Shown here piece by piece: positions 7,110-50,684 of a stretch of 64,000 bases of DNA. Origin of the DNA: an uncultured bacterium. Lineage in GTDB: Bacteria > Patescibacteriota > Patescibacteriia > CAIQCM01. The position numbers were made by a program, and so were the translations under genes. The notes under the pieces are model-generated. The model ran no database searches, was not told the DNA's origin, and saw only the letters and a list, made by a program, of their open reading frames with translations. Where the stretch lies: assembly GCA_963708045.1 (NCBI GenBank), contig OY970181.1, positions 259,740-323,739 on the forward strand. The letters are read 5' to 3'. Numbering within the stretch: the first letter of the stretch is position 1; the number at the start of each line of letters is the position of its first letter.

Positions 7110-7115
7110 CAAAAA

Positions 7116-8042: not shown

Positions 8043-8126
8043 AGCCTGGTCGTCACTGACTAATAACAAACGGTTGACCAATTTTTATTTTCGGCGTAGG
8101 TTAAATTGAATTGTCGCGCCTTTTTT

Positions 8127-8198
8127 GCCCCCATAGTTCAACGGATAGAACGACAGCGTTCTAAGCTGATTATGGGGGTTCGATTCCCTCTGGGGGCA
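8127..8198 (+). tRNA. tRNA-Arg (anticodon TCT)
   Basis: 72-nt cloverleaf folded by hand. Acceptor gccccca/tgggggc, anticodon loop gtTCTaa, T-loop ttcgatt. CCA not encoded. Confidence 0.75.
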
Positions 8199-8333
8199 TG
8201 AAAGACACGGCAATTTTTAAATACTACAAAAGCCTTAATTCCTGTTTTTATAAAGCAATAAAGCATGATTGGTTTTGTTTGTAATTCATGATAATATTTA
8301 AGCAAGATTAACTAATATTTTTTTACTATTTTT

Positions 8334-36893: not shown

Positions 36894-38252
36894 ATGAAAA
36901 TCCTCAAGATGGTTAGAAGTACAGGAAGAGAAGTTGGTCTGTCTCTAGGAGCCAACTTTGTCGCCAGACTTCTGGCGGCAGTTATGCCTGATAAGGCAAA
37001 AGATTTGTTGGAAAAGCCGGAAGATCTAATGGGGTTTAAAATCCCGTTTGATCTTGGTGAGTTTGGGACCACGGTTGGTGGAGGTATTGCAGGTTTTACA
37101 ATAGCTGAAATTCTCGGAAGGTTTTTTCCTGGGATACCAATCAACAAGCTAGACGATATCGTGCGTTTTTGCACCTCAGTCGGAGAAGAATTGGATGACA
37201 TTTTTGACATACAAAGACTGCGCGGTTCACAAACTTCAAGTTCATCGCCGCACACTGGTCGCGGCGCGGAAAGGATTCCAATGTATTCTACGTACGCTTC
37301 TCTTGCCAGCGATCCACAACATCTTCTGTTGGTGGATTGCAGCTATTTCTTGGCGGTCACCGCTCCTGTTGAAAAAGTGGTCGGTAGAACCCCAAAAGGT
37401 GATCCGATCAAAAAGTCGGTTGATGTCCCGCTCACGAGGTTCACGAGTTTTACTAACGTCTACGCGGCTGTGAAGGCGGGCGCGACGGCGGCATCACACG
37501 GTGCTGGTTGCACCTGCGCAAGTAGGTTGCAGGCGGACATCGATGCGTTTGAAGCGGCACAGAAAGCGCCAGCCGCAGCTTCGGCGTCAAAACCCGAAGC
37601 AAGGCCGTCATTCGCTGAGCTTGAGTATCAAGTGGTTGGCGAAGCGACGTTGAACAAAGACACTGCCCTGCTTACAGCGATTGCGGAGTTGGCCGTAATG
37701 CTCGGCCTCTTTGACGAAGACGAAAAGCATGGGCTGCGTTACTGCAACAGCAAGGGCGAGTACATCACGCTCGCACGAAATGCGAGCGGGATTACAGCGC
37801 TTGTTGCGGCGGGGAACAAGACAGCGATTGATGCAAAGAAGGCGGAGTTCTCAACCCACTTGCACCACCTACGCAACAACGAAGAGGTTGGAAGGTTGGA
37901 GGGGCTTTTGGGTGCGGCTGCTTCTCTGGCAGCGCCAGTACGAAGAGTAGTAAGGAAAGAGCCTGGACGTATTGCCAAAAGCAACGACGAAGCGCAGAAG
38001 CTTAATGACGTGCTCGCAAGACGCGCGGCAGTAAGCCAATACGCCAAAGGAAAAGGCACGAGCATCACCGCAGTACAGACATGTTTCGTTGAGGCGTATG
38101 GGCAACCTTGCGATCTTGATGACGTTACCGTGGCGATGGTTGATCAAGCCATTGCCGCAAATCCTCAACTGGTAAACAAAAACACAAAGCCACGTGGATG
38201 GTTTGCCCGCGCTCTTAGGCGGGTCGTTCTTCTTCCACTTTGCTTGTTCTAG
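36894..38252 (+). CDS. hypothetical protein (GC-rich, Ala-rich)
   Basis: 452-aa ORF with strong coding-like codon periodicity and a GC content clearly above neighbouring genes. No motif recognised. Confidence 0.45.
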   Translation: MKILKMVRSTGREVGLSLGANFVARLLAAVMPDKAKDLLEKPEDLMGFKIPFDLGEFGTTVGGGIAGFTIAEILGRFFPGIPINKLDDIVRFCTSVGEELDDIFDIQRLRGSQTSSSSPHTGRGAERIPMYSTYASLASDPQHLLLVDCSYFLAVTAPVEKVVGRTPKGDPIKKSVDVPLTRFTSFTNVYAAVKAGATAASHGAGCTCASRLQADIDAFEAAQKAPAAASASKPEARPSFAELEYQVVGEATLNKDTALLTAIAELAVMLGLFDEDEKHGLRYCNSKGEYITLARNASGITALVAAGNKTAIDAKKAEFSTHLHHLRNNEEVGRLEGLLGAAASLAAPVRRVVRKEPGRIAKSNDEAQKLNDVLARRAAVSQYAKGKGTSITAVQTCFVEAYGQPCDLDDVTVAMVDQAIAANPQLVNKNTKPRGWFARALRRVVLLPLCLF

Positions 38253-38267
38253 AGAAAGGGTGACACG

Positions 38268-39788
38268 ATGGACAATCTAGATCTAGATAGAATCATTGCG
38301 TACTTTAAGAACGAAAAAAGTACTATCGCTGACCTGCTGAGGCTTTTCGTTCTGTATATGGGCATCACGCGGCGTAGTAAGTTTTTCGCCGAGCTCAAGG
38401 ATGCAATCAATCGAACAGTGGCCGACCAGAAAGTTCGTGACGCGGCCCATTGGTTGGTAGGCCAATTTAAGTCAACAATGACGCGAATTGGTGTTGGGGT
38501 CGGTATCTTGTTTCTCGGAACGGTCACCGCCTTTGTTGTGGCAACGCTGAGATATATTTCCAAAGGCGATGCCGACAGCTATGTTTTTGGAGAAATCCAA
38601 CCGGCTGGCATCATCCTAATCGCTTCGTTGGTTCCAATGGTCGTTTTGTTCGTGATTCATTGGAGCAAGATTGATATCTTTGGCCAGGGAGCGAGGATCA
38701 TTGAAACGGCTCTGTCGGTAGGCGTTGACAAGCTGGGCGTATTGTTGCCGGAAATGCTGAAGGGTCGGAGTGAGAAGAAAGACGAAAGTGAATCGTGTGA
38801 ATCGTGCCTGACCGCACCGATAGACAGGGCAATGAAGCAGATTGCGGCGGCGGGTTTCTGGGTGTTTGTTTTCTACTACCACTTCGTCATCTTTGGACTG
38901 TACAAAAACCCGGCGGTGTTTCTGCTCACGATTGTGGCCGTTGGGATATTCTTCTGCTATAAGAAGGCGTTTCAACCAGATACGACTTTTTGGCGGAAGT
39001 TTATGCTGGTTTCGGTCATTGAAATGACCTTGGTGACAATCGTCTTTGTGGGTCGTGCGCCGATCAAGCATTACGGAAGAATGATGTTTCCGGAGGTAGC
39101 GGCTTGGCTTGACGAGCGAGAACTTAAAAAGAAGATCGCCGACGCGATCGGGCCGGATATTGAGAAAGTGGTTCTAGACAAAGTTATGGAGGCGAAAAAA
39201 GAGATTCCGGTGTTGGGCAAAGAGATGCGTGAGCTGGAGAACAAAGCCAACCCTACAGCTGACGATCGAAACAGAATCGCCTACATAAACAGCCAATTGG
39301 GCTGGATAAAGAAAGGGGCAATAGAGGCTCGGCCATTACCGGCATTGCCTCCACCACCACCTCCGCCTCCACCAGTCCCGACCTGTTCGGACAATATAGA
39401 CAACAACGGCAATCGTTACATTGACAAGGACGATATTGGCTGTTGGGCGATTGATCCTACTTGCGTGAGTGTTGATAGCGCTTGCGTTGGTAGGTGTGGA
39501 GCCGACGACAAAGCTTGTCGTCGGAAGTGCGTGAAGACGGATGCGGATTGCCGCAACCGGTTCGCGTCACTAGATGGCGGAAAAGTACAAAGCAAGTACT
39601 ACCGCTATCATCCGGAGTGGGACGAGGTCGCCCCGCCGGTGGTGGTGAAGGATGAGAAGAAAGACGAGAAGGAGGATAGAAAACCTACTACGGCAAACAA
39701 GCCAGAAAGTGGTACTGAAAAAACCGACGATGATGACGGCGAAGCTGCAGCCGCCATGGCCGCTCTCAAGGTTTTGAGGGGGGAGTAA
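38268..39788 (+). CDS. hypothetical polytopic membrane protein with PPPPPPPPP linker and Cys-rich C-terminal domain
   Basis: 506 aa with 5-6 TM helices in the first 270 aa, then ALPPPPPPPPPVPTCSDNIDNNGNRYIDKDDIGCWAIDPTCVSVDSACVGRCGADDKACRRKCVKTDADC and an acidic tail. Confidence 0.45.
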   Translation: MDNLDLDRIIAYFKNEKSTIADLLRLFVLYMGITRRSKFFAELKDAINRTVADQKVRDAAHWLVGQFKSTMTRIGVGVGILFLGTVTAFVVATLRYISKGDADSYVFGEIQPAGIILIASLVPMVVLFVIHWSKIDIFGQGARIIETALSVGVDKLGVLLPEMLKGRSEKKDESESCESCLTAPIDRAMKQIAAAGFWVFVFYYHFVIFGLYKNPAVFLLTIVAVGIFFCYKKAFQPDTTFWRKFMLVSVIEMTLVTIVFVGRAPIKHYGRMMFPEVAAWLDERELKKKIADAIGPDIEKVVLDKVMEAKKEIPVLGKEMRELENKANPTADDRNRIAYINSQLGWIKKGAIEARPLPALPPPPPPPPPVPTCSDNIDNNGNRYIDKDDIGCWAIDPTCVSVDSACVGRCGADDKACRRKCVKTDADCRNRFASLDGGKVQSKYYRYHPEWDEVAPPVVVKDEKKDEKEDRKPTTANKPESGTEKTDDDDGEAAAAMAALKVLRGE

Positions 39789-39852
39789 GAGCAGTACGTT
39801 TCGTAAGACCGGTGACTTCCTTCGTGGGAGTTGCCGGTTTTTTAATTCTCCG

Positions 39853-39957
39853 TCATTGCGAGGAGTGAGCCGAGGCGAACGACGCGGCAATCTCCACGGA
39901 GTATCGCCATGGTTGCTGACCAAGAGGGAGATTGCCGCGCTACCGCTCGCAATGACG
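39853..39957. other. nested inverted repeats forming a ~105-nt extended stem (possible structured RNA / complex terminator)
   Basis: cgtcattgcgagg (39853-39865) pairs with cctcgcaatgacg (~39944-39957). cgcggcaatctcc (39887-39899) pairs with ggagattgccgcg (39924-39936). Confidence 0.5.
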
Positions 39958-40145
39958 AGGGTTGATGAAGTTGTCGTTAACGCACGCAAACCATTGACAA
40001 AATCGTGTTTTTGTGATAGATTACCCTGTTATCGTGGGGGAGAGTGTAGTTTGAAAATTTAATAGATTTAGTCATTTTTTGTCCAGCTTGGCTGGATTTT
40101 AGTCCCGCCACGGCGGGATGTGCAGATTTTTCCGGAGGAAAGACA

Positions 40146-40967
40146 ATGAAGAACGTACACGGATTCACAATGGTTTTGGTTCTGATTTCTTTGGTTGGTT
40201 GTGCCCCGTTGCAATACGGGACATTTCAAGGTCATGCTTCGGGTGTGATCTATGACGACGTTGATGTCGTGGTTCAAGGGCCAAATGGTCCGCAACAGGT
40301 CACACAAAGCCGGCCAGTGATTGAAGCAAGTGTTTTTGGCCCGTCCTCAATGGAACAGGCAGGAACGTTTGCTGATCATGCTGGCAACTACAATATGAAG
40401 CGCGAGGTTGCAAAGACATACAGGCGCATGGGGCAACAAAGCATGAACACGGCGCCGGGCTCTCAGAAAGCCAATGAGGCGCTACGAGTTGCTGAGAGAA
40501 CAAGCAAGGCACTTGAGATTTTTCTGGAAGGAAAAACCAAAGGCAAAAAGGGCAAGAAGGTTGCTTCGTCTGATGTAGTGATTCCGACAACTGATTCAAA
40601 ACCAGTCGCGGCAACGTCACAACCCGAAGTAAAAACACCGCCCGCGCCAGCGCCTCAAGCGTCGGCTCAGGCAAGCTCGCCGCAGGCGACGGTTCCAGCT
40701 GGAACAATCGTTCCTGATTCTGCTTTGGTCGGGGATGATTTCTTTCTTCAATTCAAAGCGGGCGTGATGAACGCCCAAGACAAAGACCAACTCCTCGCGG
40801 TTTTTAACAAAGCCGCCGAGTATGCGGTAAACGACCAAGCAAAAGAAAAGGTCTTTGGGACACAGGCCGCAGAGATCAAGAAAATGACGGCCGAGGAATT
40901 TCCCTTGGCCAAGGATCAGATCGTGAGGGAGGTTGATTCCTTCCGTCCGTTCCTGAAGAAGAAGTAG
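40146..40967 (+). CDS. lipoprotein, hypothetical
   Basis: Lipobox LISLVGC after a signal peptide. Pro/Ala/Gln-rich linker. 273 aa. Confidence 0.5.
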   Translation: MKNVHGFTMVLVLISLVGCAPLQYGTFQGHASGVIYDDVDVVVQGPNGPQQVTQSRPVIEASVFGPSSMEQAGTFADHAGNYNMKREVAKTYRRMGQQSMNTAPGSQKANEALRVAERTSKALEIFLEGKTKGKKGKKVASSDVVIPTTDSKPVAATSQPEVKTPPAPAPQASAQASSPQATVPAGTIVPDSALVGDDFFLQFKAGVMNAQDKDQLLAVFNKAAEYAVNDQAKEKVFGTQAAEIKKMTAEEFPLAKDQIVREVDSFRPFLKKK

Positions 40968-40974
40968 TGTTCGC

Positions 40975-41012
40975 ACAACCGCACTTCGGTCGTTCGCGAC
41001 CGAAGTGCTTTC
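40975..41012 (+). terminator. intrinsic terminator
   Basis: gcacttcggtcg-ttcgcga-ccgaagtgc followed by a T-rich tract. Confidence 0.55.
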
Positions 41013-41027
41013 ATCAAGGAGATTCTC

Positions 41028-41645
41028 ATGAGACTATTTGTTGTATTGGCAATGTTGCTTTCGGCTTGCGCACAAGTTCAAACGCGTCCGCGGGTTTCGT
41101 TGCAACAAAAAAAGGTGCAATACGAACCATACGGAACACCTAGTGGTTCTAACCAGAGAGAGCTCTGTCCGATGGCTGATCCGGCGAGTCTTCCCGAAGG
41201 GAAGATCTATGGTTCATTCACACCGTTTGTTGGTGGCTTCGTCACGTACGTGAAGAACAATACCAACTTTTGGTTCTCGCGAATCAGAGTCAATGGACAG
41301 GAGCTTGTGCTCTACGACGCTTGCCGTCCGGAGCCCGAGGTTGGACTTGGACCAAACAAAGAAGTCTACTTCAGTTATTGTCCATGTGGCAGAAATCCGA
41401 GAACAGGACGTTGTATGGCGGTTCTGGATGGCGATAGTGTCAACGATATCTGCAGGATCAAGGTTGAGGTAGACTATGTGCCATACCGGAAAGATCTATA
41501 TTCTGGTGAGTACTACGAACCCGACCCTGATTTTACTCCAAGCCACGGATGTGTGGGGCAAAGAGTAAATCCGAATACGACCAGCGCTGAGGCAAATATG
41601 GTCGTCGTCTCGAGTCAGCACCTAAACAGAAAAAGCTGTCACTAG
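41028..41645 (+). CDS. lipoprotein, Cys-rich, hypothetical
   Basis: Lipobox MLLSAC. 205 aa with 8+ Cys in the mature part. Confidence 0.5.
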   Translation: MRLFVVLAMLLSACAQVQTRPRVSLQQKKVQYEPYGTPSGSNQRELCPMADPASLPEGKIYGSFTPFVGGFVTYVKNNTNFWFSRIRVNGQELVLYDACRPEPEVGLGPNKEVYFSYCPCGRNPRTGRCMAVLDGDSVNDICRIKVEVDYVPYRKDLYSGEYYEPDPDFTPSHGCVGQRVNPNTTSAEANMVVVSSQHLNRKSCH

Positions 41646-41717: not shown

Positions 41718-42116
41718 TTATTTTGCCGTTTCGGGTGTGCCGATAATGATGCTAATCACATAACGACTGATCACAAAGGCAAGGAGGATTATGATTAGGC
41801 CGATGACGCAATTTCTTATAGTTTTTTTTGCTTCTTCAATTTTGTCGGAATTATCGCCGGCCGTCATCCACGTAAAGCCAGCATAAATCGTAAGTGTAAG
41901 AAGGGCAACGCCAACCAATCCAAGTGCGCCGTTAATAATCCTACCAGCAATTATCCGCGGATCGTTTTGGCTTTGACCAAAACCGCCTTTATCTCCAAGT
42001 TCTTCTAGTCTTAGAATGGCGGTTTGAGCGTGAACGACAAACGGAAAAACCAAACAACTAATTGTCGCTAAAATTTTATTTAGTGATCGTATTTTTAAAG
42101 ACGGCAGTAAGGACAT
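41718..42116 (-). CDS. VirB2/TrbC-like 'T4SS pilin' family small membrane protein, paralog 1 (last in operon)
   Basis: Signal peptide, variable hydrophilic segment, then the shared core INGALGLVGVALLTLTIYAGFTWMTAGDNSDKIEEAKKTIRNCVIGLIIILLAFVI (two hydrophobic helices around a charged loop). Confidence 0.6.
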   Translation of the reverse strand: MSLLPSLKIRSLNKILATISCLVFPFVVHAQTAILRLEELGDKGGFGQSQNDPRIIAGRIINGALGLVGVALLTLTIYAGFTWMTAGDNSDKIEEAKKTIRNCVIGLIIILLAFVISRYVISIIIGTPETAK

Positions 42117-42438
42117 AATGAGAAATGGCGTACGAGGCCACGACAATTATTAAACCGATGATTGAATTTTTAATCGTTTCTTTAGCCGTGTCAACTTTGT
42201 CTTCGTTGCCGCGGGCAATTAGCCACATATAACCACCGTAAAGCATAAGAACAAGGAAAATAACACCTAAGAGTCCAAGGAAGCCAGTGATTACTCGCGA
42301 GAGGATAGTTTCAATTGGCGCATTAGAATATCCGCCATTTTTTTGGGCAGTATTTGTCAAAAGTTCACTGCCAAAATCTTGCGCTCGCGCAATAAATGGT
42401 AAGAAAAAAGCTGGAATAGCAAGAATAATTTTTTTCAT
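42076..42438 (-). CDS. T4SS-pilin-like paralog 2
   Basis: Start MKKIILAIPAFFLPFIARA at 42438. Core ITGFLGLLGVIFLVLMLYGGYMWLIARGNEDKVDTAKETIKNSIIGLIIVVASYAI. Confidence 0.6.
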   Translation of the reverse strand: MKKIILAIPAFFLPFIARAQDFGSELLTNTAQKNGGYSNAPIETILSRVITGFLGLLGVIFLVLMLYGGYMWLIARGNEDKVDTAKETIKNSIIGLIIVVASYAISHYVLTAVFKNTITK

Positions 42439-42448
42439 AACAATAAGT

Positions 42449-42931
42449 TTAAAGTTGGGTTGGTGGCACCGCGTGGCACTGTCCGTCGGTACCACAGTAA
42501 TCGGTGCCGGTGCAGGCTGGGTTGCACGAACCGCTGCCGCCAGTAGGCGTTCCTTGGTTGGAAAGCACCTGGAACACCACATAATTAGTTATGGCATAAG
42601 CAAGGGCGACAATCACAATGCCAATTACCGCCGCCTTCATTGTGTTTAATGATTTTTCAACCTTTTCGGTGTTGCCGCGGGCAATCATCCAAATATATCC
42701 GGCGTAGATGAGCAAAACAAGAAAAATAATACCAGTTAACCCAAGTGCGCCTTTAATTACTTCGCCAACAATACTTGAAAGCGATGAACTTTTTGTATTA
42801 ATGCCGGCAACGGCGCCGGTTTTTGACAAGCCATATTTATCAGCAAAGGTAACGTGCGGCGCCAAAAATACAAGGCCAACACCAATGGCGATAATCGCGA
42901 AAACAATAACGATGTATTTTTTATTTTTCAT
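42449..42931 (-). CDS. T4SS-pilin-like paralog 3 with Cys-rich C-terminal tail
   Basis: Start MKNKKYIVIVFAIIAIG at 42931. Core IKGALGLTGIIFLVLLIYAGYIWMIARGNTEKVEKSLNTMKAAVIGIVIVALAYAI. Tail ...GSGSCNPACTGTDYCGTDGQCH. Confidence 0.6.
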   Translation of the reverse strand: MKNKKYIVIVFAIIAIGVGLVFLAPHVTFADKYGLSKTGAVAGINTKSSSLSSIVGEVIKGALGLTGIIFLVLLIYAGYIWMIARGNTEKVEKSLNTMKAAVIGIVIVALAYAITNYVVFQVLSNQGTPTGGSGSCNPACTGTDYCGTDGQCHAVPPTQL

Positions 42932-42947
42932 TGCAACGCAATTGATT

Positions 42948-43355
42948 CTATGGCGATGACGCTGGCGGTGTTGAGGCTGGATTTTTTGTGAGAACTTGAT
43001 TAATGACAAAGTCGGTAATCGCATAAGCCAAAGCGACAATGATGATACCAATGATTGCCGCCTTGATCGTATCTAGCGAATGTTCAACCTTGCTCTCGTC
43101 GCCGCGGGCAATCATCCACAAATAGCCGGAGTAGATCATTAAAATTAGGAAAATAACGCCGACCAAACCAAGGGCGCCTCTTATGACGGTACCGATAATT
43201 TGTTCAACGCTGGTGTTGCCTTTGTTAAGCTCGGCAGTTCCGGCGGTTTCTTCTATGCCGTATTGGGCGAGCGCTGTGCTCGGCGCGGCAAATAAAAGAC
43301 CGGCACCGATCGCAAAAATCGCCAAAAATATCGCAAAGTATTTTTTGTTTTTCAT
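42948..43355 (-). CDS. T4SS-pilin-like paralog 4
   Basis: Start MKNKKYFAIFLAIFAIG. Core IRGALGLVGVIFLILMIYSGYLWMIARGDESKVEHSLDTIKAAIIGIIIVALAYAI. Confidence 0.6.
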   Translation of the reverse strand: MKNKKYFAIFLAIFAIGAGLLFAAPSTALAQYGIEETAGTAELNKGNTSVEQIIGTVIRGALGLVGVIFLILMIYSGYLWMIARGDESKVEHSLDTIKAAIIGIIIVALAYAITDFVINQVLTKNPASTPPASSP

Positions 43356-43451
43356 AATCATAATGGGGTGGAGAACGATAATGATCTAGCTAAGGTCAGT
43401 ATCGTCCTGCACCCCATTTTTTGGTGCAGGAGCAGGTCTCGAGACTTGCGA

Positions 43452-43820
43452 TTATCCGCTGGTTGTAGCGCCAACCAAAGAATTGATAACGAATTGAGCG
43501 ATGGCGTAGGAACAGAGGATGATAACGAGGCCAATAACGCCTCCGTAGATCCACTTTTTGGCTTCGCCAACTTTTTCTTCGTTGCCTCCGGCCGTCATCC
43601 AAAGGAAACCACCGTAAAGGATGATAACGAGGACGATGACGCCGATAAACGACAAGGCGACGTTGATGATTTTACCAATCGTCGTTCTGAGTTCTTGCGT
43701 TCCCAAGCTGGTGCCCGTGACGTTATTAAGTCCAAGGTTAAGCTGGGCGTTAGCGGCAAAAGGAAGGACGACCGCGCTAATTGCGGCGCCGATTCCGGCT
43801 ATTTTTTTGAGTGCTTTCAT
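43452..43820 (-). CDS. T4SS-pilin-like paralog 5
   Basis: Core IINVALSFIGVIVLVIILYGGFLWMTAGGNEEKVGEAKKWIYGGVIGLVIILCSYAI. Confidence 0.6.
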   Translation of the reverse strand: MKALKKIAGIGAAISAVVLPFAANAQLNLGLNNVTGTSLGTQELRTTIGKIINVALSFIGVIVLVIILYGGFLWMTAGGNEEKVGEAKKWIYGGVIGLVIILCSYAIAQFVINSLVGATTSG

Positions 43821-43886
43821 TTCATAACACCCCCTTTCATTTGCGGGTACGGCTTTGGTCGCGAAAAACGGCCAAACCCCTACCCG

Positions 43887-44426
43887 TTATTTGGTCGGCG
43901 CAATCGCCGAGAAAATATAGGTTGTAAGCGCGTAAGCGCCAAAGATAAGAACAAGACCAAGGATTGACCAGATAAGCGTTTTTTTGCCGGTTTCTACGCG
44001 CGTTTCATTGCCCATTGAAGTTAACCACAAAAATCCGCCCCAAACTGCCATAAGCAAGGCAATTGAACCGACAATACCCATCGCCGTTTTGATAACGCTT
44101 CCGAGAACATGTTGAATACATTGCTGACCAGTTTCATTGGCCGCGCAAATTTTTGTGCCAATGGGATTGGTTAGGGTGGTTGATCCTCCGGGGGTGGTTC
44201 CTGGACCGCCAGAAGATGGAGTGGTGCCGTTCACGTCGCAAGTTCCACCAGGCACGGAAACGGACGGGCAGATCGCTGTATTGGTACAAATTGGGTCGGC
44301 AACAGTGCTACAAGGCGTTGCTGTAGCCACACCACCACACATACAAACGCCGGCATTGGCCGCAATTGGAACAAAAAAAGCGCTAACAATGAAAGTTAAG
44401 AAAATTAAAGAAAAAAACCGTTTCAT
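43887..44426 (-). CDS. T4SS-pilin-like paralog 6 with Cys-rich N-terminal head
   Basis: Head GVCMCGGVATATPCSTVADPICTNTAICPSVSVPGGTCDVNG. Core IKTAMGIVGSIALLMAVWGGFLWLTSMGNETRVETGKKTLIWSILGLVLIFGAYAL. Confidence 0.6.
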   Translation of the reverse strand: MKRFFSLIFLTFIVSAFFVPIAANAGVCMCGGVATATPCSTVADPICTNTAICPSVSVPGGTCDVNGTTPSSGGPGTTPGGSTTLTNPIGTKICAANETGQQCIQHVLGSVIKTAMGIVGSIALLMAVWGGFLWLTSMGNETRVETGKKTLIWSILGLVLIFGAYALTTYIFSAIAPTK

Positions 44427-44428
44427 AA

Positions 44429-44854
44429 TTATTTAGAACTAAAAGGGGTTTTAAAATAAGCAGCAATGTCGGTAATGCCAAAAGCCGCAAGTAGAAAGCC
44501 GATAAGCGTGTAAGCCCCAAAGACTATTATAAGCCCAATAAGCGACGAAGACAAAACTTTCTTGCCTTGTTCCACGCGAGTACTGTTTCCAGCCGAAATA
44601 AGCCACAAAAATCCGCCATAAACAAACATAATAAGAATTATTGAACCAGACAGTCCTAAAATAATTTTGGTTACATTTACGCCAACGATCAAAAAATCAA
44701 CAAGTTGGCAGGTTCCCTCGCTCGCGCATTTGTCAGAAATGCCAGTGAGTAATCCTCCTGGCGCGGCGGCTAAAGCTGAATTGGGATAAAAAAACGCCGT
44801 AACCGGAACGGCTAGAAAAATATGGCGTAAGATCCAAGCGAATCTTTTGTGCAT
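44429..44854 (-). CDS. T4SS-pilin-like paralog 7 (first in operon)
   Basis: Core ILGLSGSIILIMFVYGGFLWLISAGNSTRVEQGKKVLSSSLIGLIIVFGAYTL. Confidence 0.6.
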   Translation of the reverse strand: MHKRFAWILRHIFLAVPVTAFFYPNSALAAAPGGLLTGISDKCASEGTCQLVDFLIVGVNVTKIILGLSGSIILIMFVYGGFLWLISAGNSTRVEQGKKVLSSSLIGLIIVFGAYTLIGFLLAAFGITDIAAYFKTPFSSK

Positions 44855-44955: not shown

Positions 44956-46362
44956 CTATTTCATCGTTTCATAAACCGCATTAAGGGCGTTGCTCACAGA
45001 CTCGTGAATTTTGCCGCCGTTTAACACGTTGTTAATAAGGTCGGCAAAAGCTTTTTCATAACCAGCTTCATTTTTTCCGCGATACCATGATTTTGCCGTA
45101 AGCATTTGGTCGGCAAAAACCGAGAGATCCAAGTCATCAAGCTGTTTATTGATGCCGCTTCGGAGCGCGGTTGGTTTGCGCGTTGCGTTAAGGTATTTTG
45201 TGTTTTGATCGGGCGAGGCGGCAAACTTGAGAAAGTCCCATGCCCAAGCTTGGTTGATTGATTTTTTGGACACGCCCTGCACCCAGTAGTTGGCATAGTT
45301 AGTCGGCGAAACGGAATTTAGCTGGGGCAGTTTAGCAATGCCAAAATTAAGTTTTGGTGCGCGCGCGCGGATGTCTGAAAGGTTGAAAGCATATCCGAGG
45401 AACATTGCGCTTTGTCCCGACACAAAAGCGGCAAGATTGTCGGGTTTTTTATCGTTCCAAGTGTATACTTCGGTGGAAGGATTAGCAAAATCGGTGTAAA
45501 AGATTACAGCATCATCGGATGGCGGGTTGGCGCGTCCGGCTGCGGCGGCTGGGGTTTTGTCAAAAGTAAGACCGCCGTATTCGTCGGTCATTTGTGTTCC
45601 GTTTTGCATCATTAAAACCGAAAGGATATCGGCATAGCGCAAGACGTTTGAAGACGTTCCAAGACCAACGCCAGATTGGATAACATTTCCTTGGGTATCA
45701 AGTTTTGTAAGTTTGGCCACGTCCTTTTGAAAGGCTGTCCAGTCGGTCGGCGGCTCGGCAATGCCCGCGGCATTAAAAAGATCTTTGTTGTAATAAAGCG
45801 CTAGGTTGTCGGCGGAAAGCGGCATGGCCAAAATTTTATCGGTTTTGGGATCGTATTCCGATTCGCCTGGCACTTTTACGATACAGTCGGCGGCGGCCAC
45901 ATCAACAAAAGTATTTTTAAATTGGTTGATGCTCATTCCCGGCGTTGTTTTCATAACCGTGACCGTGGTTTTTGAAAGCGTGCCGGTTTCGGTTGAGTAG
46001 GGGAGGTTAAAAGAATCAGGAATCGGCGCCAGTTTTGGGCTGTACGCGTTTACCCAAGTGTTGTGGATTGAAAAAATATCCGGCCCGCGGTCTTCGGCAA
46101 GAGCGTTAAGAAGCGCCTTTTCGTATTCGCTTGAGCGATACATTTTAAAAGCGATACTGACGTTCGGGTGAATCGCGTTATAAGCCGAAATAATTGAGTG
46201 CGTGGTTTCTTCGTCGTCAAAAACTCCCCACCAATTTATGGTGACTGGCTTGCTGGCCTTGATTACCTCGGGCGACGGGGCTTTGGTACAGCCGGCGCCC
46301 ATAAGCATCGTAAAGGCGACGATGGAGATGACCAATGAACGAAAGGACTTTTTTATTTTCAT
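44956..46362 (-). CDS. extracellular solute-binding lipoprotein (ABC transporter SBP family 1, sugar-type); orphan, with no permease or ATPase adjacent
   Basis: Lipobox LMGAGC. 468 aa with an SBP_bac_1-like layout. Confidence 0.65.
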   Translation of the reverse strand: MKIKKSFRSLVISIVAFTMLMGAGCTKAPSPEVIKASKPVTINWWGVFDDEETTHSIISAYNAIHPNVSIAFKMYRSSEYEKALLNALAEDRGPDIFSIHNTWVNAYSPKLAPIPDSFNLPYSTETGTLSKTTVTVMKTTPGMSINQFKNTFVDVAAADCIVKVPGESEYDPKTDKILAMPLSADNLALYYNKDLFNAAGIAEPPTDWTAFQKDVAKLTKLDTQGNVIQSGVGLGTSSNVLRYADILSVLMMQNGTQMTDEYGGLTFDKTPAAAAGRANPPSDDAVIFYTDFANPSTEVYTWNDKKPDNLAAFVSGQSAMFLGYAFNLSDIRARAPKLNFGIAKLPQLNSVSPTNYANYWVQGVSKKSINQAWAWDFLKFAASPDQNTKYLNATRKPTALRSGINKQLDDLDLSVFADQMLTAKSWYRGKNEAGYEKAFADLINNVLNGGKIHESVSNALNAVYETMK

Positions 46363-46369
46363 ATATATA

Positions 46370-47236
46370 CTATTTGATATTGCGAAGATAAGCGCGGAAG
46401 TCGGCGCCGATTTCGGGATGGTTTAGGCCGTACGAAATTTGTGCCTTGAGAAAACCAAGTTTAGCGCCGCAGTCGTGCCAAATGCCGTCAAATTCGCAGG
46501 CATAAATCGGTCGGCGCTTGAGGAACTCGGCGTAAGCGCCGGCTAAACGAATTTCGCCGCTCTTGTCCGGTTTAAGTCGCGCTAGAATGTCAAAAATTTC
46601 TGGCGTAATAATTTCGCGTCCAACGTGCGCTAGGGTGGACGGGGCTTTGCCGATATCTGGTTTTTCTACAAAGGCGCTGACTTCATAAACGCGCTCGCCA
46701 ACTTTTTTTCCGTCAATGACGCCGTAGCGCGAAACAATATTTTTTGGCACACGGCTCACGCCGGCAACGGGATCTTGATAACGATCGTAAACTTCCATAA
46801 GTTGTGCAATCGCTGGTTTTTTTGATTCAACAATGTCGTCGCCGTAGAAGACGGCGCAAGGTTCGTCGCCGACAATTTCGCGCGCCGAAAGAATGGCATC
46901 GCCGTCGCCCCGCGGCGAGCGTTGGCGCACATAAACGAATTTCGCCATATCGGTGATATCCAAAATTTCGCTAAGTTCTTTTTTCTTGCCCTTTTTGCGC
47001 AAGCGGTATTCCAATTCAAAGTTGCGGTCAAAATGGTCTTCTATTGCTCGTTTGCCAAGCGAGGTTACGAAAATAATTTCTTCAATTCCGGCCGCGACCG
47101 CTTCTTCCACAATATATTGAATAATCGGTTTATCCACCAAGGTCAGCATTTCCTTTGGTTGCGCCTTGGTTGCTGGGAGGAAGCGCGTGCCCATTCCGGC
47201 CACGGGAATAACCGCTTTGCGTATTTTCATAGTCAT
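46370..47236 (-). CDS. galU: UTP--glucose-1-phosphate uridylyltransferase
   Basis: N-terminal KAVIPVAGMGTRFLPATKAQPKEMLTLVDKPIIQYIVEEA is canonical for GalU. Confidence 0.85.
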   Translation of the reverse strand: MTMKIRKAVIPVAGMGTRFLPATKAQPKEMLTLVDKPIIQYIVEEAVAAGIEEIIFVTSLGKRAIEDHFDRNFELEYRLRKKGKKKELSEILDITDMAKFVYVRQRSPRGDGDAILSAREIVGDEPCAVFYGDDIVESKKPAIAQLMEVYDRYQDPVAGVSRVPKNIVSRYGVIDGKKVGERVYEVSAFVEKPDIGKAPSTLAHVGREIITPEIFDILARLKPDKSGEIRLAGAYAEFLKRRPIYACEFDGIWHDCGAKLGFLKAQISYGLNHPEIGADFRAYLRNIK

Positions 47237-47319: not shown

Positions 47320-48654
47320 TTATTTTTCAATCGTTCCCGTCTCTAATGCTTCAAAAGCCGAACCGGGGATATTTTTTAGCGTGTTAAGGTCTTCGTCGTT
47401 CCAGCCTGGGCTATAGGCGCCCTGAAAATACCACGACGAGCCGTTGTCGGCCAAAATCATTCCGTATTTTTTCATCGCGGTCGCGATAATTTTTGCTTGC
47501 GTCGGAAGCTTAGAAATATCGTAGCTGGCTTTTAGCCTGACGCGTAGTCCCATCGGCGGCAGAGTAGTGCTGGTACTGGAACTTGCCAAATGCCGCGCCG
47601 GAAAAATATATCCGGCTTGCGTTTTTGGCGCGGTAAAACGGATGGCGTGATTAATGACGCCGGCCATCACTTCGTCGTAACGCACCAGACCCGGGAGAAT
47701 CGGGAGGCCGGCGGCGTCGGCCGAAGTCCAACCAGCCGGCCTGACGGCGTTTGATTTTAAATCCCAAATCGCGCCCGAGCCAGCGTGCCAACCGGCGCCA
47801 GCCGACGAATTAAGTGAGGCGTCGTAAAGTTCGTAAAGTTTGCATTCGTCTTTTTGCAGGATCAAAAGATGTTGGTCAGAGCCATCTTCAATATTTGGAT
47901 TAGCTGGAATCGGATACGGACCAACGTCGCTTTCGTCGGCATAATCAAAGGTGACGGAAACTTTTGACGTGGAATTGTCGGCGATATTATAAGGAATGCC
48001 GTATTCACGAGTTTCGCCAAAGTCGGGGTGCAAGCCTTTGCTTGAACCAATAGACGCGATATACGCGCTTGAATTTTTATTAACTGTTAAATTAGTAACG
48101 TCTTCGTTCCAAGGATTATCTGCGGGGAAAATAGAACAGCCAGCAATGGTTGGGTTGGAACCATTTGCGGCCGGTATCGGATTGTCCATTGTATATTGCT
48201 CATCGTTCATCGTAATTGAATTAAGATCATCGTTCGTTATGCCAAGTCCGCAGGCGCGCATAATCTGGTATGCCGCGTCGCCGTCCTTAATATATGAAAG
48301 CGTTTTTGTGCGCGGACAAAGATAATACGCTTCGCCGTGCGCTTCAACACGCAAAACGATTTTTCCCATTAGCCGTGTTCGGAGGGCAGTGTTGCCTGCG
48401 GCAAACTTTGCGTAATCGCTTTCGGAAATTCCTAACCCAAGCGCGCGCATAATTTGGTAAGCGGCACTGCCGTCTTTTAAATACCAACGCTTTTCATCGG
48501 TCGGGTTAACGTACCAAGCTTCGCCATTGGCTTGCACTTGGAGAAGAACATAACCTTTAAGCCGCGCCGAAAGTGAACCCGCCGCACCCACAAACGCTGG
48601 AAACGTTAACGCGATTATAAAAATTATTATTGCGAATTTTTTTATTGAGTTCAT
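47320..48654 (-). CDS. secreted hypothetical protein with two N-terminal ~55-aa repeats
   Basis: Signal peptide. The repeats share the motif DGSAAYQIMRALGLGI / DGDAAYQIMRACGLGI. Large C-terminal domain of unknown function. Confidence 0.45.
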   Translation of the reverse strand: MNSIKKFAIIIFIIALTFPAFVGAAGSLSARLKGYVLLQVQANGEAWYVNPTDEKRWYLKDGSAAYQIMRALGLGISESDYAKFAAGNTALRTRLMGKIVLRVEAHGEAYYLCPRTKTLSYIKDGDAAYQIMRACGLGITNDDLNSITMNDEQYTMDNPIPAANGSNPTIAGCSIFPADNPWNEDVTNLTVNKNSSAYIASIGSSKGLHPDFGETREYGIPYNIADNSTSKVSVTFDYADESDVGPYPIPANPNIEDGSDQHLLILQKDECKLYELYDASLNSSAGAGWHAGSGAIWDLKSNAVRPAGWTSADAAGLPILPGLVRYDEVMAGVINHAIRFTAPKTQAGYIFPARHLASSSTSTTLPPMGLRVRLKASYDISKLPTQAKIIATAMKKYGMILADNGSSWYFQGAYSPGWNDEDLNTLKNIPGSAFEALETGTIEK

Positions 48655-48815: not shown

Positions 48816-49688
48816 TTAGAGCGGATTGTTTCTGATTAGCTGTTCAAGCGCGGCAAGGCCGGCGAAGAGCGCAAGCGCGTGCGCGGAGCTGTCCATATTG
48901 TGGTCGCAAAAATCGTAGCCGTACATTTTCCTGAAAGATGATTGCGTTGGGAAAAGTCCGCAACCAGATCCTGGTCCCGTGATATTGAGCCAACCGCCTT
49001 CCCCTTCAATGCGGACATTGGTGTTCATTTGGTCAAAACCATCAACCCCCATCATTCTATCCCAAGCGATGAGGATGGCCGCACGTGGTTCCGCGAGATT
49101 CTTTGCCCTGCGGTGACATAGCCAATGGGAGACCGCGCCGCTGTATGTTCCAGCCAGTGCGATGATGCTTGGACGAGAGCTTGTCGTAAAACTCAGGAGT
49201 TGGGGTACTGTTGCAGAGGTGTCGTGCTCGGGCGGCATAGAGCAGATGATTTGCGAAAGTACGGACAGGCTGGCGTGGATAGCTTCAGCTTCTTTCCAAT
49301 CAATTACGGTTTTAAAGCCGCGCTCGCAGTAGAGGCAGGTGTTTCCCAGCTCTTGATCTTCCCCCGTGCCATTGCATTTGTCGCATTTGGTATCGGTGAC
49401 CTTTTTGACGCGCGGGATTTCAAAGCTGAGGTAGGTAAATCCGCGCTCGGCGTCTATCACCTGCTTTAGACCGGTTCCAAAACCCCAGTTTTGTTCCGGC
49501 GCGCAGGAAAAGAATCCGTGCGCTTCAGTGAAATCTGCAAACCCAAGGTGGCCTAGAGAAACCTCGTAGAGTGTTGGCACGATATCGCGATGTATTGCGA
49601 TGGTAATCGCGAGTCGCATTTGATCCCAAAAGAGTTGCGTCCAGCAGGGAATGGATTGATGGCTGAGTACCTTTGGCATTGGTTCCAT
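48816..49688 (-). CDS. hypothetical protein, paralog A, with DnaJ-type CxxCxGxG...CxxC zinc-finger-like motif
   Basis: 290 aa. KCDKCNGTGEDQELGNTCLYCERG. Shares IPCW...GWGF...FEIP.VKK.T...CxxCNGTG...PPE.DT....PQLLSF with paralog B. Confidence 0.5.
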   Translation of the reverse strand: MEPMPKVLSHQSIPCWTQLFWDQMRLAITIAIHRDIVPTLYEVSLGHLGFADFTEAHGFFSCAPEQNWGFGTGLKQVIDAERGFTYLSFEIPRVKKVTDTKCDKCNGTGEDQELGNTCLYCERGFKTVIDWKEAEAIHASLSVLSQIICSMPPEHDTSATVPQLLSFTTSSRPSIIALAGTYSGAVSHWLCHRRAKNLAEPRAAILIAWDRMMGVDGFDQMNTNVRIEGEGGWLNITGPGSGCGLFPTQSSFRKMYGYDFCDHNMDSSAHALALFAGLAALEQLIRNNPL

Positions 49689-49811: not shown

Positions 49812-50684
49812 CTAGTACCCAAGCGCTTGGCGCGCTTCGGTTTCAATTGCGGCGAGCGCGGCAAGCAAAGTAAGAAGCTGAAACGGGCCGTCTATGTTGT
49901 GGTCGGAGAAGCTGTAACCTCCGGTTTCTGGAACATGGCCGCTATCGGGGTTAAGACTGCAAGCGTCGCCTGGGCAATGAATGTTTACCCAGCCGCTTGC
50001 ATACGCTATTTGCGCGTCAAAACGGTGGTAGCCTTTTTCTTTTTGGCCGTGCATTTGTGTCCAAACGGCGGTCATTGCGCTCGTTGGCGTCTCAAGATTC
50101 TGGACACCCAAACGACGGAACCAGTCCACGAGAAGAAAGCTAAATTCGCCAGAGAGTCCGTAACGACCGGACGAAGCGCAAACGTCAAACGACAAGAGTT
50201 GCGGTGCTTGGGAAGGTGTGTCGTTCTCTGGCGGAAAGCGCCCGAGCGCCATACAGAGTAGAGCAATGCTTGCCGAAAGCGGCCAGATCGTAGCTCGGTC
50301 GTAGTAATAACATTTTCCGTTGGTGCAATGTGGGCACTTGTCATCGCGCTCATCATCGTGACCGGTTCCATTGCAGAAGGTGCAATCGTTCTCGGTGGTT
50401 TTTTTGACCAGCGGAATTTCAAACACAAACGGAACAAAACCGTCAGGCGTTACCTGGGCTTGTTTCAGGCTCGCGTTAAAACCCCAACCGCCTTCGCTCG
50501 CCGCGGAAAAGGTTGTTCCTTTGGGCAGGGAGTGGAGATAGATTGGAATGATCGGCGCGACTGCTGGAATTTTGTAGAGCTCGTGAACAATGCTTTGATG
50601 CACAAGAATTCCAATCGTCGGCGGATTGTCTTGCCAAACTAACTTCATCCAACAAGGGATGACTTTGTCGGTTAATCTGCTCAT
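49812..50684 (-). CDS. hypothetical protein, paralog B, with CxxCxGxG...CxxC motif
   Basis: 290 aa. DCTFCNGTGHDDERDDKCPHCTNGKC. The upstream leader (ggccgaatcttatagctg) also resembles that of paralog A (ggccagatcttataactg). Confidence 0.5.
   Translation of the reverse strand: MSRLTDKVIPCWMKLVWQDNPPTIGILVHQSIVHELYKIPAVAPIIPIYLHSLPKGTTFSAASEGGWGFNASLKQAQVTPDGFVPFVFEIPLVKKTTENDCTFCNGTGHDDERDDKCPHCTNGKCYYYDRATIWPLSASIALLCMALGRFPPENDTPSQAPQLLSFDVCASSGRYGLSGEFSFLLVDWFRRLGVQNLETPTSAMTAVWTQMHGQKEKGYHRFDAQIAYASGWVNIHCPGDACSLNPDSGHVPETGGYSFSDHNIDGPFQLLTLLAALAAIETEARQALGY

What the first reader, a model, noticed from the sequence alone, without database searches (positions are those of the whole stretch)
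41718..44854. Tandem array of seven divergent VirB2/TrbC-like 'T4SS pilin' paralogs in one minus-strand operon
Seven consecutive, tightly packed minus-strand genes of 120-180 aa, with 2-60 bp gaps or overlaps. Each encodes a signal peptide, a variable hydrophilic head (~30-80 aa), and an identical architecture in the conserved part. That part is helix 1 [IV]xxALGLxGxIxLxLxIYxGxxWMxA, a short charged loop GN/GDxxKV, and helix 2 xxIGLIIVxxAYAI. This two-helix topology is that of conjugative VirB2/TrbC pilins, and of the small 'T4SS pilin' proteins that recur in CPR and Gram-positive genomes. Two copies carry extra Cys-rich modules: a CNPACTGTDYCGTDGQC tail on paralog 3 and a C-x-C-rich head on paralog 6. 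The heads are hypervariable and the cores conserved, which resembles a diversified surface-filament or adhesin repertoire. No VirB4, VirD4 or VirB6 gene lies in the window. The array therefore looks like a chromosomal pilin expansion decoupled from a classical conjugation locus, or used for host-cell attachment or type-IV-secretion-like contact by an episymbiont. I am not aware of a described seven-copy array of this kind.
Basis: partly seen in the sequence, partly recalled or inferred. Interest (0 to 1): 0.85.

Follow-up and report, generated by a model that had tools for sequence, protein, structure and literature searches.

The report
Seven-gene VirB2-like pilin array, Patescibacteria
Seven neighbouring genes really do encode divergent copies of a small "type IV secretion pilin" protein, but such arrays are already described in these ultrasmall (Patescibacteria) bacteria; what looks new is that this array always travels with a sugar-binding-type surface protein gene and keeps a fixed gene order.

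Summary
Seven tandem minus-strand genes (41718-44854; 120-179 aa) all match Pfam PF18895 T4SS_pilin above its curated cutoff. Each has a signal peptide, a variable head and a conserved two-helix core. The 64-kb window is the dnaA origin region of a ~1.19-Mb Patescibacteria chromosome, probably class ABY1. No VirB4, VirB6, VirD4 or PrgI gene was detected in it.

The novelty claim fails. Arrays of 2-11 VirB2-like/PF18895 genes were reported in 383 Patescibacteria assemblies (PMC12102498, 2025). An essential pilin series lies in the Southlakia epibionticum T4SS cluster (PMC10633639, 2023).

Two points go beyond the papers I read:
- **Conserved operon-like module.** The array belongs to a module of GalU, an orphan SBP_bac_1 solute-binding protein, then pilins. 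In 80 metagenome loci chosen by the SBP alone, 60 of 65 informative loci have a pilin gene directly downstream.
- **Fixed gene order.** A P7-type gene comes first in 19/19 arrays, P6-type second in 14/19 and P5-type third in 12/19. A close relative has seven one-to-one orthologues showing no excess of non-synonymous change.

The paralogues therefore look like differentiated subunits, not a fast-changing adhesin repertoire. Verdict: new member of a known kind, with moderate interest.

The parts
46370..47236 (-). galU (UTP-glucose-1-phosphate uridylyltransferase). It lies 7 bp upstream of the SBP gene on the same strand and is a frequent first gene of the module.
   Evidence: TIGR01099 galU scores 337 bits against a cutoff of 326.8. 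Pfam finds NTP_transferase. A GalU homologue lies directly upstream on the same strand in 32 of 53 SBP-selected loci with enough upstream DNA. It is also present in L010, L011, L094, L096 and L097.
44956..46362 (-). Orphan SBP_bac_1/SBP_bac_8 solute-binding protein (468 aa). It has a signal sequence ending in a conserved GxGC motif, so it is probably lipid-anchored. It sits 101 bp upstream of the first pilin gene on the same strand.
   Evidence: Pfam SBP_bac_1, E 1e-20. Distant matches to UgpB, MalE and trehalose/maltose-binding proteins in PDB and NCBIfam. The Cys motif after the hydrophobic region is present in 61 of 76 orthologues, mostly as GxGC. 60 of 65 SBP-selected loci have a PF18895-like gene directly downstream. 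No ABC permease or ATPase family appears among the 25 commonest Pfam families of the 150 nearest neighbours.
44429..44854 (-). P7 (141 aa), the position-1 pilin subtype. A C-x6-C loop precedes helix 1 (KCASEGTCQLVDF).
   Evidence: PF18895, 33.1 bits. Position 1 is P7-type in 19/19 arrays. A Cys pair precedes helix 1 in the 6 other position-1 sequences my motif filter could display. The L096 orthologue is 77% identical.
43887..44426 (-). P6 (179 aa), the position-2 subtype. It has a long Cys- and Gly/Thr/Pro-rich head plus a C-x10-C pair before helix 1.
   Evidence: PF18895 43.1 bits and TrbC 23.1 bits. Position 2 is P6-type in 14/19 arrays. Against the L096 orthologue the core is 95% identical, but the signal peptide plus head is only 57% identical with 12 gap columns.
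43452..43820 (-). P5 (122 aa), the position-3 subtype. It has a short head and the mature protein has a single Cys. It is the most conserved paralogue and a candidate major subunit (inference).
   Evidence: PF18895, 40.4 bits. Mean best-hit identity to 19 other arrays is 52%, against 39-41% for the other six. Position 3 is P5-type in 12/19 arrays. The L096 orthologue is 87% identical.
42948..43361 (-). P4 (137 aa). Its closest paralogue is P3. It has a Pro/Ser/Thr-rich C-terminal tail.
   Evidence: PF18895 37.0 bits and TrbC 22.7 bits. P3/P4 identity is 56% over the full length and 70% in the core. The L096 orthologue is 72% identical.
42449..42931 (-). P3 (160 aa). It carries a Cys-rich C-terminal tail (CNPACTGTDYCGTDGQC).
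   Evidence: PF18895, 37.7 bits. The L096 orthologue is 57% identical overall. Its tail is only 29% identical but still Cys-containing.
42076..42438 (-). P2 (120 aa), the shortest copy and the one closest to the TrbC/VirB2 model.
   Evidence: PF18895 43.8 bits. TrbC 27.3 bits against a cutoff of 27.9. NF045849 38.2 bits against a cutoff of 40. The AlphaFold2 model shows a helix hairpin (H42-74, H79-118) with core pLDDT above 90.
41718..42116 (-). P1 (132 aa), the last gene. It overlaps the P2 3' end by 41 bp if it starts at ATG 42116. The longest ORF would start at TTG 42146.
   Evidence: PF18895, 46.4 bits. The 132-aa model matches the public gene call. A similar 32-bp overlap occurs in L096. 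The L096 orthologue is 55% identical.

Best explanation
The seven genes encode Sec-exported two-helix membrane proteins of the PF18895 family. This is the VirB2-like pilin family of the Patescibacteria (monoderm-type) type IV secretion system. They lie in an operon-like module behind an orphan, probably lipid-anchored solute-binding protein and usually galU.

**Shown**
- Family membership.
- The layout of signal peptide, variable head and hairpin core.
- Conservation of the module and of the gene order across many genomes.
- dN far below dS between orthologues.

**Inferred**
- After signal-peptide cleavage the subunits sit in the membrane with head and C-tail outside and the charged turn inside.
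- A VirB4/VirB6-type T4SS encoded elsewhere in the genome extracts and polymerises them. The product would be a short pilus or conduit at the contact with a host cell.
- The paralogues have different structural jobs. P5-type would be the bulk subunit. P7- and P6-type (always first, with Cys-bearing heads that vary in length and sequence) would be minor, initiator or tip subunits. P4-P1 would be lineage-specific accessory variants.
- The SBP is a surface partner of this structure, acting as receptor, adhesin or ligand capture, and not part of a standard ABC importer.
For: - **Family:** PF18895 is above cutoff in 7/7, with sub-threshold TrbC/VirB2 matches in 4/7. There is a near-threshold match to the Mycoplasma-ICE pilin-like conjugal transfer family.
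- **Topology:** hydropathy and AxA-type sites fit the proposed layout. The AlphaFold2 hairpin has core pLDDT above 90.
- **Link to T4SS machinery:** six-gene arrays in Saccharimonadia loci L002-L007 were recovered with pilin P2 as query and re-detected with the family HMM. In the loci long enough to show it, they sit divergently next to a VirB6-like gene, a PrgI-domain gene and a VirB4-like (P-loop_TraG/AAA_10) gene. This matches the published essential T4SS cluster of S. epibionticum.
- **Published precedent:** arrays of 2-11 genes with about 25% mean identity. The pilin gene is near virB4 in only 1,135 of 1,948 assemblies that have both.
- **Module:** 60/65 SBP-selected loci have a pilin directly downstream, and GalU is upstream in 32/53. 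Other neighbours differ between loci.
- **Differentiated subunits:** position-specific subtypes and seven collinear orthologues in L096 with dN 0.08-0.33 against dS 0.8-2.1.
Against: - No T4SS ATPase or channel gene was found within 64 kb. None appears among the common neighbours of 80 related loci. Dependence on a T4SS is therefore inferred only from homologues.
- I could not read the rest of the source genome, so the presence of VirB4 there is untested.
- According to the reviews I read, no pilus of this type has been seen in any Patescibacterium.
- The role of the SBP is pure inference from gene linkage.
Confidence: 0.6

Rival explanations
1. The proteins are membrane-resident partners of the SBP and not pilus subunits. 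In this view the two-helix proteins stay in the membrane and form, with the orphan SBP lipoprotein, a non-canonical uptake or sensing complex. This complex would work without any VirB4 machinery.
For: - SBP-pilin adjacency is very strongly conserved (60/65).
- T4SS genes, ABC permeases and ABC ATPases are all absent from the 25 commonest Pfam families of the 150 nearest neighbours and were not detected in the 64-kb window.
- The hairpin fold is not specific to pilins.
Against: - Family members in Saccharimonadia are embedded in a VirB4/VirB6/PrgI cluster.
- Pfam and NCBIfam relate the family to conjugative pilin-like proteins.
- Needing six or seven ordered paralogues fits a filament with major and minor subunits better than a transporter.
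- No precedent for such a complex is known to me.
Confidence: 0.2
2. The array is an antigenic or host-range variation repertoire. The paralogues would be interchangeable major pilins, expressed alternately or diversifying quickly. This would change the exposed head and match different host strains, as proposed for virB2 paralogues of Bartonella and Anaplasma.
For: - Heads and tails differ strongly between paralogues (12-46% identity).
- Heads evolve faster than cores between orthologues (dN 0.10-0.51 vs 0.04-0.25) and carry indels.
- This idea is offered in PMC12102498.
- A DGR Avd-like gene sits inside one related array (L010).
Against: - A relative with 82% SBP identity has seven one-to-one collinear orthologues.
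- Position-specific subtypes are conserved across arrays whose SBPs are only about 36-56% identical to the window's.
- dN stays far below dS in every gene.
- I saw no invertible element, recombinase or reverse transcriptase near the window's array in the gene survey.
Confidence: 0.15
3. The genes encode unrelated small membrane proteins (holin, bacteriocin-immunity or similar) that only mimic a pilin layout.
For: Short two-TM proteins are easy to misassign. The fold searches were non-specific.
Against: - All seven exceed the curated PF18895 cutoff, and the only other matches are weak hits to unrelated membrane-protein families.
- For the two pilins scanned against NCBIfam (P2, P6) the only hit is a pilin-like conjugal transfer family.
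- No phage or bacteriocin genes were found among the neighbours scanned.
- Homologues sit in T4SS clusters.
Confidence: 0.03

Closest known systems
VirB2-like (PF18895/PF04956) pilin arrays of Patescibacteria (Quinonero-Coronel et al. 2025, Microb Genom 11:001409; PMC12102498)
   Same: The same Pfam family is used for detection. Arrays are tandem, of 2-11 genes, with low within-array identity (published mean 25%, maximum 54%; here 24-56%). They are chromosomal, often in the dnaA half of the genome, and usually lack a relaxase nearby.
   Different: This array is not near virB4. The paper's array figure (Fig. S9) marks arrays near virB4 and highlights Microgenomatia and Saccharimonadia. This array belongs to an ABY1-like lineage and sits in a GalU-SBP-pilin module. 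The terms 'solute', 'substrate-binding' and 'ABC' do not occur in the paper's main text. The fixed gene order is also not described there.
Essential pilin series in the T4SS cluster of Ca. Southlakia epibionticum ML1 (SEML1_0006-0019; Wang et al. 2023, Cell; PMC10633639), and the 'Sec-secreted array' of TM7x
   Same: Several sequence-divergent, structurally similar VirB2-like pilins are encoded side by side (six in the later review's count). My Saccharimonadia loci L002-L007 show six-gene arrays detected by the same family HMM.
   Different: There the array is adjacent to VirB6-like, PrgI-domain and VirB4-like genes and has no SBP neighbour. Essentiality is shown there by Tn-seq. Nothing experimental exists for the window's lineage.
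Conjugative VirB2/TrbC/TraA pilins of diderm T4SS (Pfam PF04956; Agrobacterium VirB2, RP4 TrbC, F TraA)
   Same: Shared features are a signal peptide, two hydrophobic helices joined by a short charged turn, and small size. The TrbC HMM gives E 4e-6 to 1e-4 for three copies and E 0.09 for a fourth.
   Different: All copies are below the PF04956 curated cutoff. No sequence-level hit to solved pilins was found. The organism is inferred to be a monoderm (literature statement for the phylum). There are seven copies with extra heads and tails. No VirB5, VirB3 or VirB4 neighbours are present.
Tandem virB2 paralogues in Bartonella and Anaplasma phagocytophilum T4SS loci (as cited in PMC12102498)
   Same: Tandem amplification and divergence of the pilin gene.
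   Different: Those are PF04956-type pilins inside complete virB operons of intracellular pathogens of animals, interpreted as antigenic variation. Here the paralogues are ancient, ordered and conserved.
Mbov_0395/MMCAP2_0565 pilin-like conjugal transfer protein of Mycoplasma ICEs (NCBIfam NF045849)
   Same: An 80-residue hairpin core in a wall-less or monoderm conjugation system. P2 scores 38.2 bits and P6 33 bits.
   Different: Both are below the equivalog cutoff (40 bits). In ICEs the gene is single-copy.

Membership tests
Pfam PF18895 T4SS_pilin | Score at or above the curated gathering cutoff (26.6 bits) over most of the 71-position model | tested here: met
   All seven score 33.1-46.4 bits and cover model positions ~2-11 to 70-71. 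Precomputed hits on the public copy of the array agree.
Pfam PF04956 TrbC/VirB2 pilin | Score at or above the curated cutoff (27.9 bits) | tested here: not met
   The best score is P2 at 27.3 bits (E 4e-6). P6 scores 23.1, P4 22.7 and P1 13.5; the others are lower or absent. This suggests a distant relationship but is not membership by Pfam's own rule.
VirB2-type conjugative pilin (functional class) | Cleavable signal peptide followed by two hydrophobic helices joined by a short charged turn | tested here: met
   Shown by the alignment, by hydropathy and AxA-type sites, and by the AlphaFold2 hairpin with core pLDDT above 90.
VirB2-type conjugative pilin (functional class) | Structural similarity to solved T4SS pilins (F TraA, T-pilus VirB2 and others) above background | tested here: inconclusive
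VirB2-type conjugative pilin (functional class) | Encoded with, or at least in a genome with, VirB4 and VirB6-type machinery | tested here: inconclusive
   None was detected in the 64-kb window or among the common neighbours of 80 related loci. Saccharimonadia relatives have them adjacent. The rest of the 1.19-Mb source genome could not be read.
VirB2-type conjugative pilin (functional class) | Polymerises into an extracellular pilus | not testable with these tools
   This needs microscopy or biochemistry. The reviews read describe such a pilus only as a possibility in Patescibacteria.
Patescibacteria VirB2 arrays (PMC12102498) | Two or more PF18895/PF04956 genes in tandem or separated by one non-pilin gene | tested here: met
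   Seven contiguous genes.
Patescibacteria VirB2 arrays (PMC12102498) | Low identity between members (published mean 25%, maximum 54%) | tested here: met
   24-56% over the full length.
Patescibacteria VirB2 arrays (PMC12102498) | Host genome is a Patescibacterium | tested here: met
   The best named DnaA and SBP relatives are Ca. Uhrbacteria, Buchananbacteria, Parcubacteria and 'Patescibacteria group'. The source contig is 1,188,223 bp. Uhrbacteria and Magasanikbacteria are class ABY1 in the paper's table. This is an inference from best hits, not a phylogeny.
ABC-transporter substrate-binding protein (for the linked SBP) | SBP_bac_1 fold family, encoded with cognate permease and ATPase genes | tested here: not met
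   The domain is present. However, neither BPD_transp_1 nor ABC_tran is among the 25 commonest Pfam families of the 150 nearest neighbours across the SBP-selected loci. None is adjacent in the window either. The protein has the SBP fold family but is an 'orphan'.

The most novel reading that the evidence does not exclude
In ABY1-type Patescibacteria the VirB2-like pilins have been uncoupled from the virB4 locus. They would instead form, with an orphan sugar-type solute-binding lipoprotein, a dedicated surface apparatus with a fixed subunit order (P7-type, P6-type, P5-type, then variants). The SBP would be a functional part of the pilus system, for example a receptor or tip-associated binder for a host-derived glycan or glycolipid, or a ligand-capture step feeding the conduit. 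This would give a first concrete functional handle on the Patescibacteria T4SS, which is essential in the one species tested but whose role is described as unknown.
Probability: 0.2. Interest if true: 0.7.

Novelty: new member of a known kind. Interest (0 to 1): 0.38.

Why it matters
A 2024 perspective states that the role of the T4SS in Saccharibacteria is 'completely unknown' (PMC11665869). It is nevertheless essential in the one species tested. The array in this window adds no new kind of element.

Its context does give testable leads:
- A gene link between the pilins and an orphan carbohydrate-type binding protein, strongly conserved while other neighbours change.
- A conserved subunit order, suggesting major and minor pilins.

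If the link is functional, it narrows hypotheses about what the pilus binds or carries at the contact between symbiont and host.

Tried and rejected
- **PDB sequence search.** A profile search found only spurious repeats in designed 'Pizza' proteins.
- **Locus search with the seven-protein alignment.** It failed because no stretch was conserved enough.
- **Locus search with P2 alone.** It reached only a 1.8-kb fragment and Saccharimonadia genomes.
- **Retrieving the source record.** Attempts to reach the 1.19-Mb record, and so look for VirB4 elsewhere, returned only a short identical Logan contig without DNA and no names.
- **Fast-evolving unknown genes between the array and PBP1 (36894-41645) as possible T4SS parts.** They had no Pfam or NCBIfam hits. 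Only the 506-aa multi-TM protein has a homologue, in one relative. I therefore do not treat them as part of the system.
- **VirB6, PrgI and VirB4 queries against the window.** These Saccharimonadia proteins gave nothing below E about 1.
- **Large pilin heads in related arrays.** They contain no known Pfam domain.
- **RNA elements near the array.** Rfam found only three tRNAs in the window.
- **Promoter and terminator scan.** Results were near shuffle expectation and were not used as evidence.

Full report
**1. What is in the sequence**

ORF listing shows seven consecutive minus-strand ORFs between 41718 and 44854. I trimmed each to the ATG that precedes its signal peptide. The products are then 141, 179, 122, 137, 160, 120 and 132 aa (P7 to P1 in transcription order). 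These lengths equal the independent gene calls on a public contig with the identical array.

- Spacings are 2, 66, 90, 16 and 10 bp, followed by a 41-bp overlap.
- All seven exceed the curated cutoff of Pfam PF18895 'T4SS_pilin' (33-46 bits against 26.6).
- The TrbC/VirB2 model PF04956 is just below its cutoff for P2 (27.3 against 27.9) and weaker for P6, P4 and P1.
- NCBIfam gives a near-threshold match to the pilin-like conjugal transfer protein of Mycoplasma ICEs.
- A family HMM finds exactly seven copies in the window.
- The alignment, hydropathy and an AlphaFold2 model (core pLDDT above 90) agree on the layout. It consists of a signal peptide, a variable head, helix 1, a short charged turn, helix 2 and a short or extended tail.

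**2. Genomic setting**

The window is the replication-origin region of a chromosome. It carries rnpA, dnaA and dnaN at 2.1-5.5 kb, followed by housekeeping and envelope genes. These include PBP1, DUF2079, MacB/HlyD, Wzy, a polysaccharide flippase, SpoIID and RuvB.

- Pfam scans of most ORFs of 100 aa or more detect no VirB4, VirD4, VirB6 or PrgI. Neither does tblastn or phmmer with Saccharimonadia T4SS proteins.
- The source contig is 1,188,223 bp.
- The best named relatives of DnaA and of the SBP are Candidatus Uhrbacteria, Buchananbacteria, Parcubacteria and 'Patescibacteria group'.
- Uhrbacteria and Magasanikbacteria are listed as class ABY1 in PMC12102498.

I therefore infer a Patescibacterium, probably of class ABY1.

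**3. What is already known**

- PMC12102498 (2025) searched 3,035 Patescibacteria genomes with PF18895 and PF04956, among other profiles. It reports 441 arrays of 2-11 pilin genes in 383 assemblies, with mean identity of 25% and a maximum of 54%. The pilin gene lies near virB4 in only 1,135 of 1,948 assemblies that have both.
- PMC10633639 (2023) showed by Tn-seq that the series of predicted pilins in the T4SS cluster of S. epibionticum is essential.
- A 2025 review describes that cluster as six structurally conserved, sequence-divergent VirB2-like pilins.
- My Saccharimonadia loci L002-L007 reproduce that picture. Six-gene arrays sit next to a VirB6-like gene, a PrgI-domain gene and a VirB4-like gene.
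- The family is very large. It has 89,871 cluster representatives at E <= 1e-3 and 38,199 at E <= 1e-10 in 1.84 billion proteins.

**4. What the context adds**

Upstream of P7 on the same strand lie an SBP_bac_1 solute-binding protein (44956-46362; 101-bp gap) and galU (46370-47236; 7-bp gap).

The same GalU-SBP-pilin order occurs in several other records:
- a Candidatus Magasanikbacteria contig with ten called pilin genes (L011/L012);
- a 1.02-Mb contig (L010);
- a 399.5-kb contig of a closer relative (L094). There the wider synteny also matches the window: Polysacc_synt, Wzy, GalU, SBP, pilins, unknown genes, PBP1, DUF2079.

To test the link without selecting on pilins, I fetched 80 metagenome loci by the SBP alone (40-74% identity).

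- Of the 65 loci with at least 600 bp downstream, 60 have a PF18895-like gene directly downstream on the same strand. Some of the five misses are filter artefacts.
- Complete arrays have 1-9 genes, with modes at 1 and 6.
- GalU is directly upstream in 32 of 53 loci.
- The other neighbours vary: ComM, SMC, a RodZ-like protein, RecA, methyltransferases and Wzy.
- Among the 150 nearest other genes, the 25 commonest Pfam families include no ABC permease, no ABC ATPase and no T4SS family.
- The SBP has a conserved Cys motif after its signal region in 61/76 orthologues, mostly GxGC, which suggests lipid anchoring.
- It is only distantly related to UgpB- and MalE-type sugar binders.
- The terms 'solute', 'substrate-binding' and 'ABC' do not occur in PMC12102498. 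A literature search for the combination found nothing.

**5. Order and evolution of the paralogues**

I compared 19 other arrays with the window.

| Position after the SBP | Best-matching window paralogue | Arrays |
|---|---|---|
| 1 | P7-type | 19/19 |
| 2 | P6-type | 14/19 |
| 3 | P5-type | 12/19 |
| later | mostly P5-, P3- and P2-type | variable |

- P7-type proteins show a Cys pair just before helix 1 in the position-1 sequences that could be displayed.
- P5-type proteins are short-headed, nearly Cys-free and the most conserved (mean best-hit identity 52%, against 39-41% for the others).
- The closest relative with DNA (L096; SBP 82% identical) has exactly seven pilins. They are collinear one-to-one orthologues with 55-87% identity, against 76% for GalU.
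- In that comparison core dN is 0.04-0.25 and N-terminal dN is 0.10-0.51. dS is about 0.8-2.1, which is near saturation. Indels are concentrated in heads and tails.

Heads do evolve faster than cores. Even so, the set is stable, ordered and shows no excess of non-synonymous change.

**6. Most likely mechanism**

- *Shown:* family membership, the topology features, the conserved module and the conserved gene order.
- *Inferred from the family and from Saccharimonadia homologues:* the proteins are exported by Sec, cleaved and stored in the membrane. A VirB4/VirB6-type T4SS encoded elsewhere then assembles them into a pilus or conduit at the host contact.
- *Inferred from conservation patterns:* P5-type is the bulk subunit. 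P7- and P6-type are minor or initiator subunits. P4-P1 are accessory variants.
- *Inferred from linkage only:* the SBP is a surface partner of this structure.

Rivals are given with their tests in the Rival explanations section. They are a pilus-independent SBP-membrane complex, an antigenic or host-range variation repertoire, and unrelated small membrane proteins.

**7. Limits**

- The fold is too simple for structural discrimination.
- No solved pilin is detectable by sequence.
- I could not read the remainder of the source genome, so VirB4 presence there is untested.
- Expression is untested.
- dS saturation prevents a real dN/dS test on the heads.

**8. Verdict**

This is a real seven-gene array of VirB2-like pilins and a new member of a described kind. 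The conserved GalU-SBP-pilin module and the fixed subunit order are modest observations that appear to be unreported. They raise interest somewhat above 'ordinary'.

Noticed in passing
window 44956-47236 (-), and loci L010, L011/L012, L013-L092, L094, L096, L097: A conserved GalU - orphan SBP_bac_1 (GxGC motif) - pilin array module. 60 of 65 informative loci chosen by the SBP alone have a PF18895-like gene directly downstream. No ABC permease, ABC ATPase or T4SS family is among the commonest families of the nearest neighbours.
   Followed up: yes
window 41718-44854; 19 related arrays (e.g. L016, L017, L029, L035, L096): The subunit order is fixed: P7-type (Cys loop before helix 1) first, P6-type second, P5-type third. 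The close relative L096 has seven collinear one-to-one orthologues.
   Followed up: yes
L008 10001-10804 (P0001, 267 aa); L009 990-1628; 12 ORFs in L013-L092; representatives P0361-P0494: Some single ORFs carry two pilin domains under genetic code 11. Some library proteins show up to 17 matched stretches (for example 1,775 aa). These may be genuine poly-pilins, or arrays fused by gene calling under a different genetic code.
   Followed up: partly
L010 3346-6198, 7090-7962 and 7973-8362: A related array contains a 950-aa 'giant-head' protein with a sub-threshold C-terminal pilin domain. Between two of its pilin genes sits a gene matching 23S_rRNA_IVP/bAvd, the family of the accessory protein of diversity-generating retroelements. 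The same family appears in 2 of the 150 neighbours surveyed. No reverse transcriptase was seen within the locus.
   Followed up: partly
window 48816-49688 (-) and 49812-50684 (-): Two tandem paralogues of 290 aa (34% identical) have a CxxCxGxG...CxxC motif and no Pfam or NCBIfam hit. In relatives L096 and L097 one of the two ~290-aa genes at the same position hits PF17338 GP88.
   Followed up: partly
window 58841-59296, 59300-59716, 59938-60480 (+) and 15725-16198 (-): Three tandem type IV pilus-type prepilin genes (N_methyl motif) plus a fourth elsewhere. This is a second, unrelated pilin cluster in the same window.
   Followed up: no
window 5520-7040 (-): A 506-aa protein with Peptidase_M23 and a weak SLT transglycosylase match lies next to dnaN. 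The architecture is reminiscent of the VirB1/TrsG-like cell-wall hydrolases of monoderm T4SSs. It could equally be a housekeeping hydrolase.
   Followed up: no
window 36894-41645 (+): A block of four fast-evolving genes without family hits lies convergent to the array. They are a 452-aa protein, a 506-aa protein with about 5 TM segments plus poly-Pro and a Cys-rich C-terminus, a 273-aa putative lipoprotein and a 205-aa Cys-rich putative lipoprotein. Only the 506-aa protein has a detectable homologue in relative L094 (22% identity).
   Followed up: partly
window 47320-48654 (-): A 444-aa secreted protein with two N-terminal ~70-aa repeats and no family hit lies directly upstream of galU. Genes of 446-456 aa without Pfam hits occupy a similar position in L096 and L097.
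   Followed up: no
L094 8270-8977; L095 1039-1746: In a relative, a DsbD_TM (CcdA-like) gene sits directly upstream of galU-SBP-pilins. This is possibly relevant to disulfide formation in the Cys-bearing pilin heads. No such gene was found among the window ORFs scanned.
   Followed up: no
window 13808-14854 (+); 7086-8042 (+) with tRNA-Arg at 8126-8199: A Fic/DOC-family protein with SoFic-like C-terminus. Separately, a tyrosine recombinase (XerC/D-like or integrase) lies immediately before a tRNA-Arg gene.
   Followed up: no
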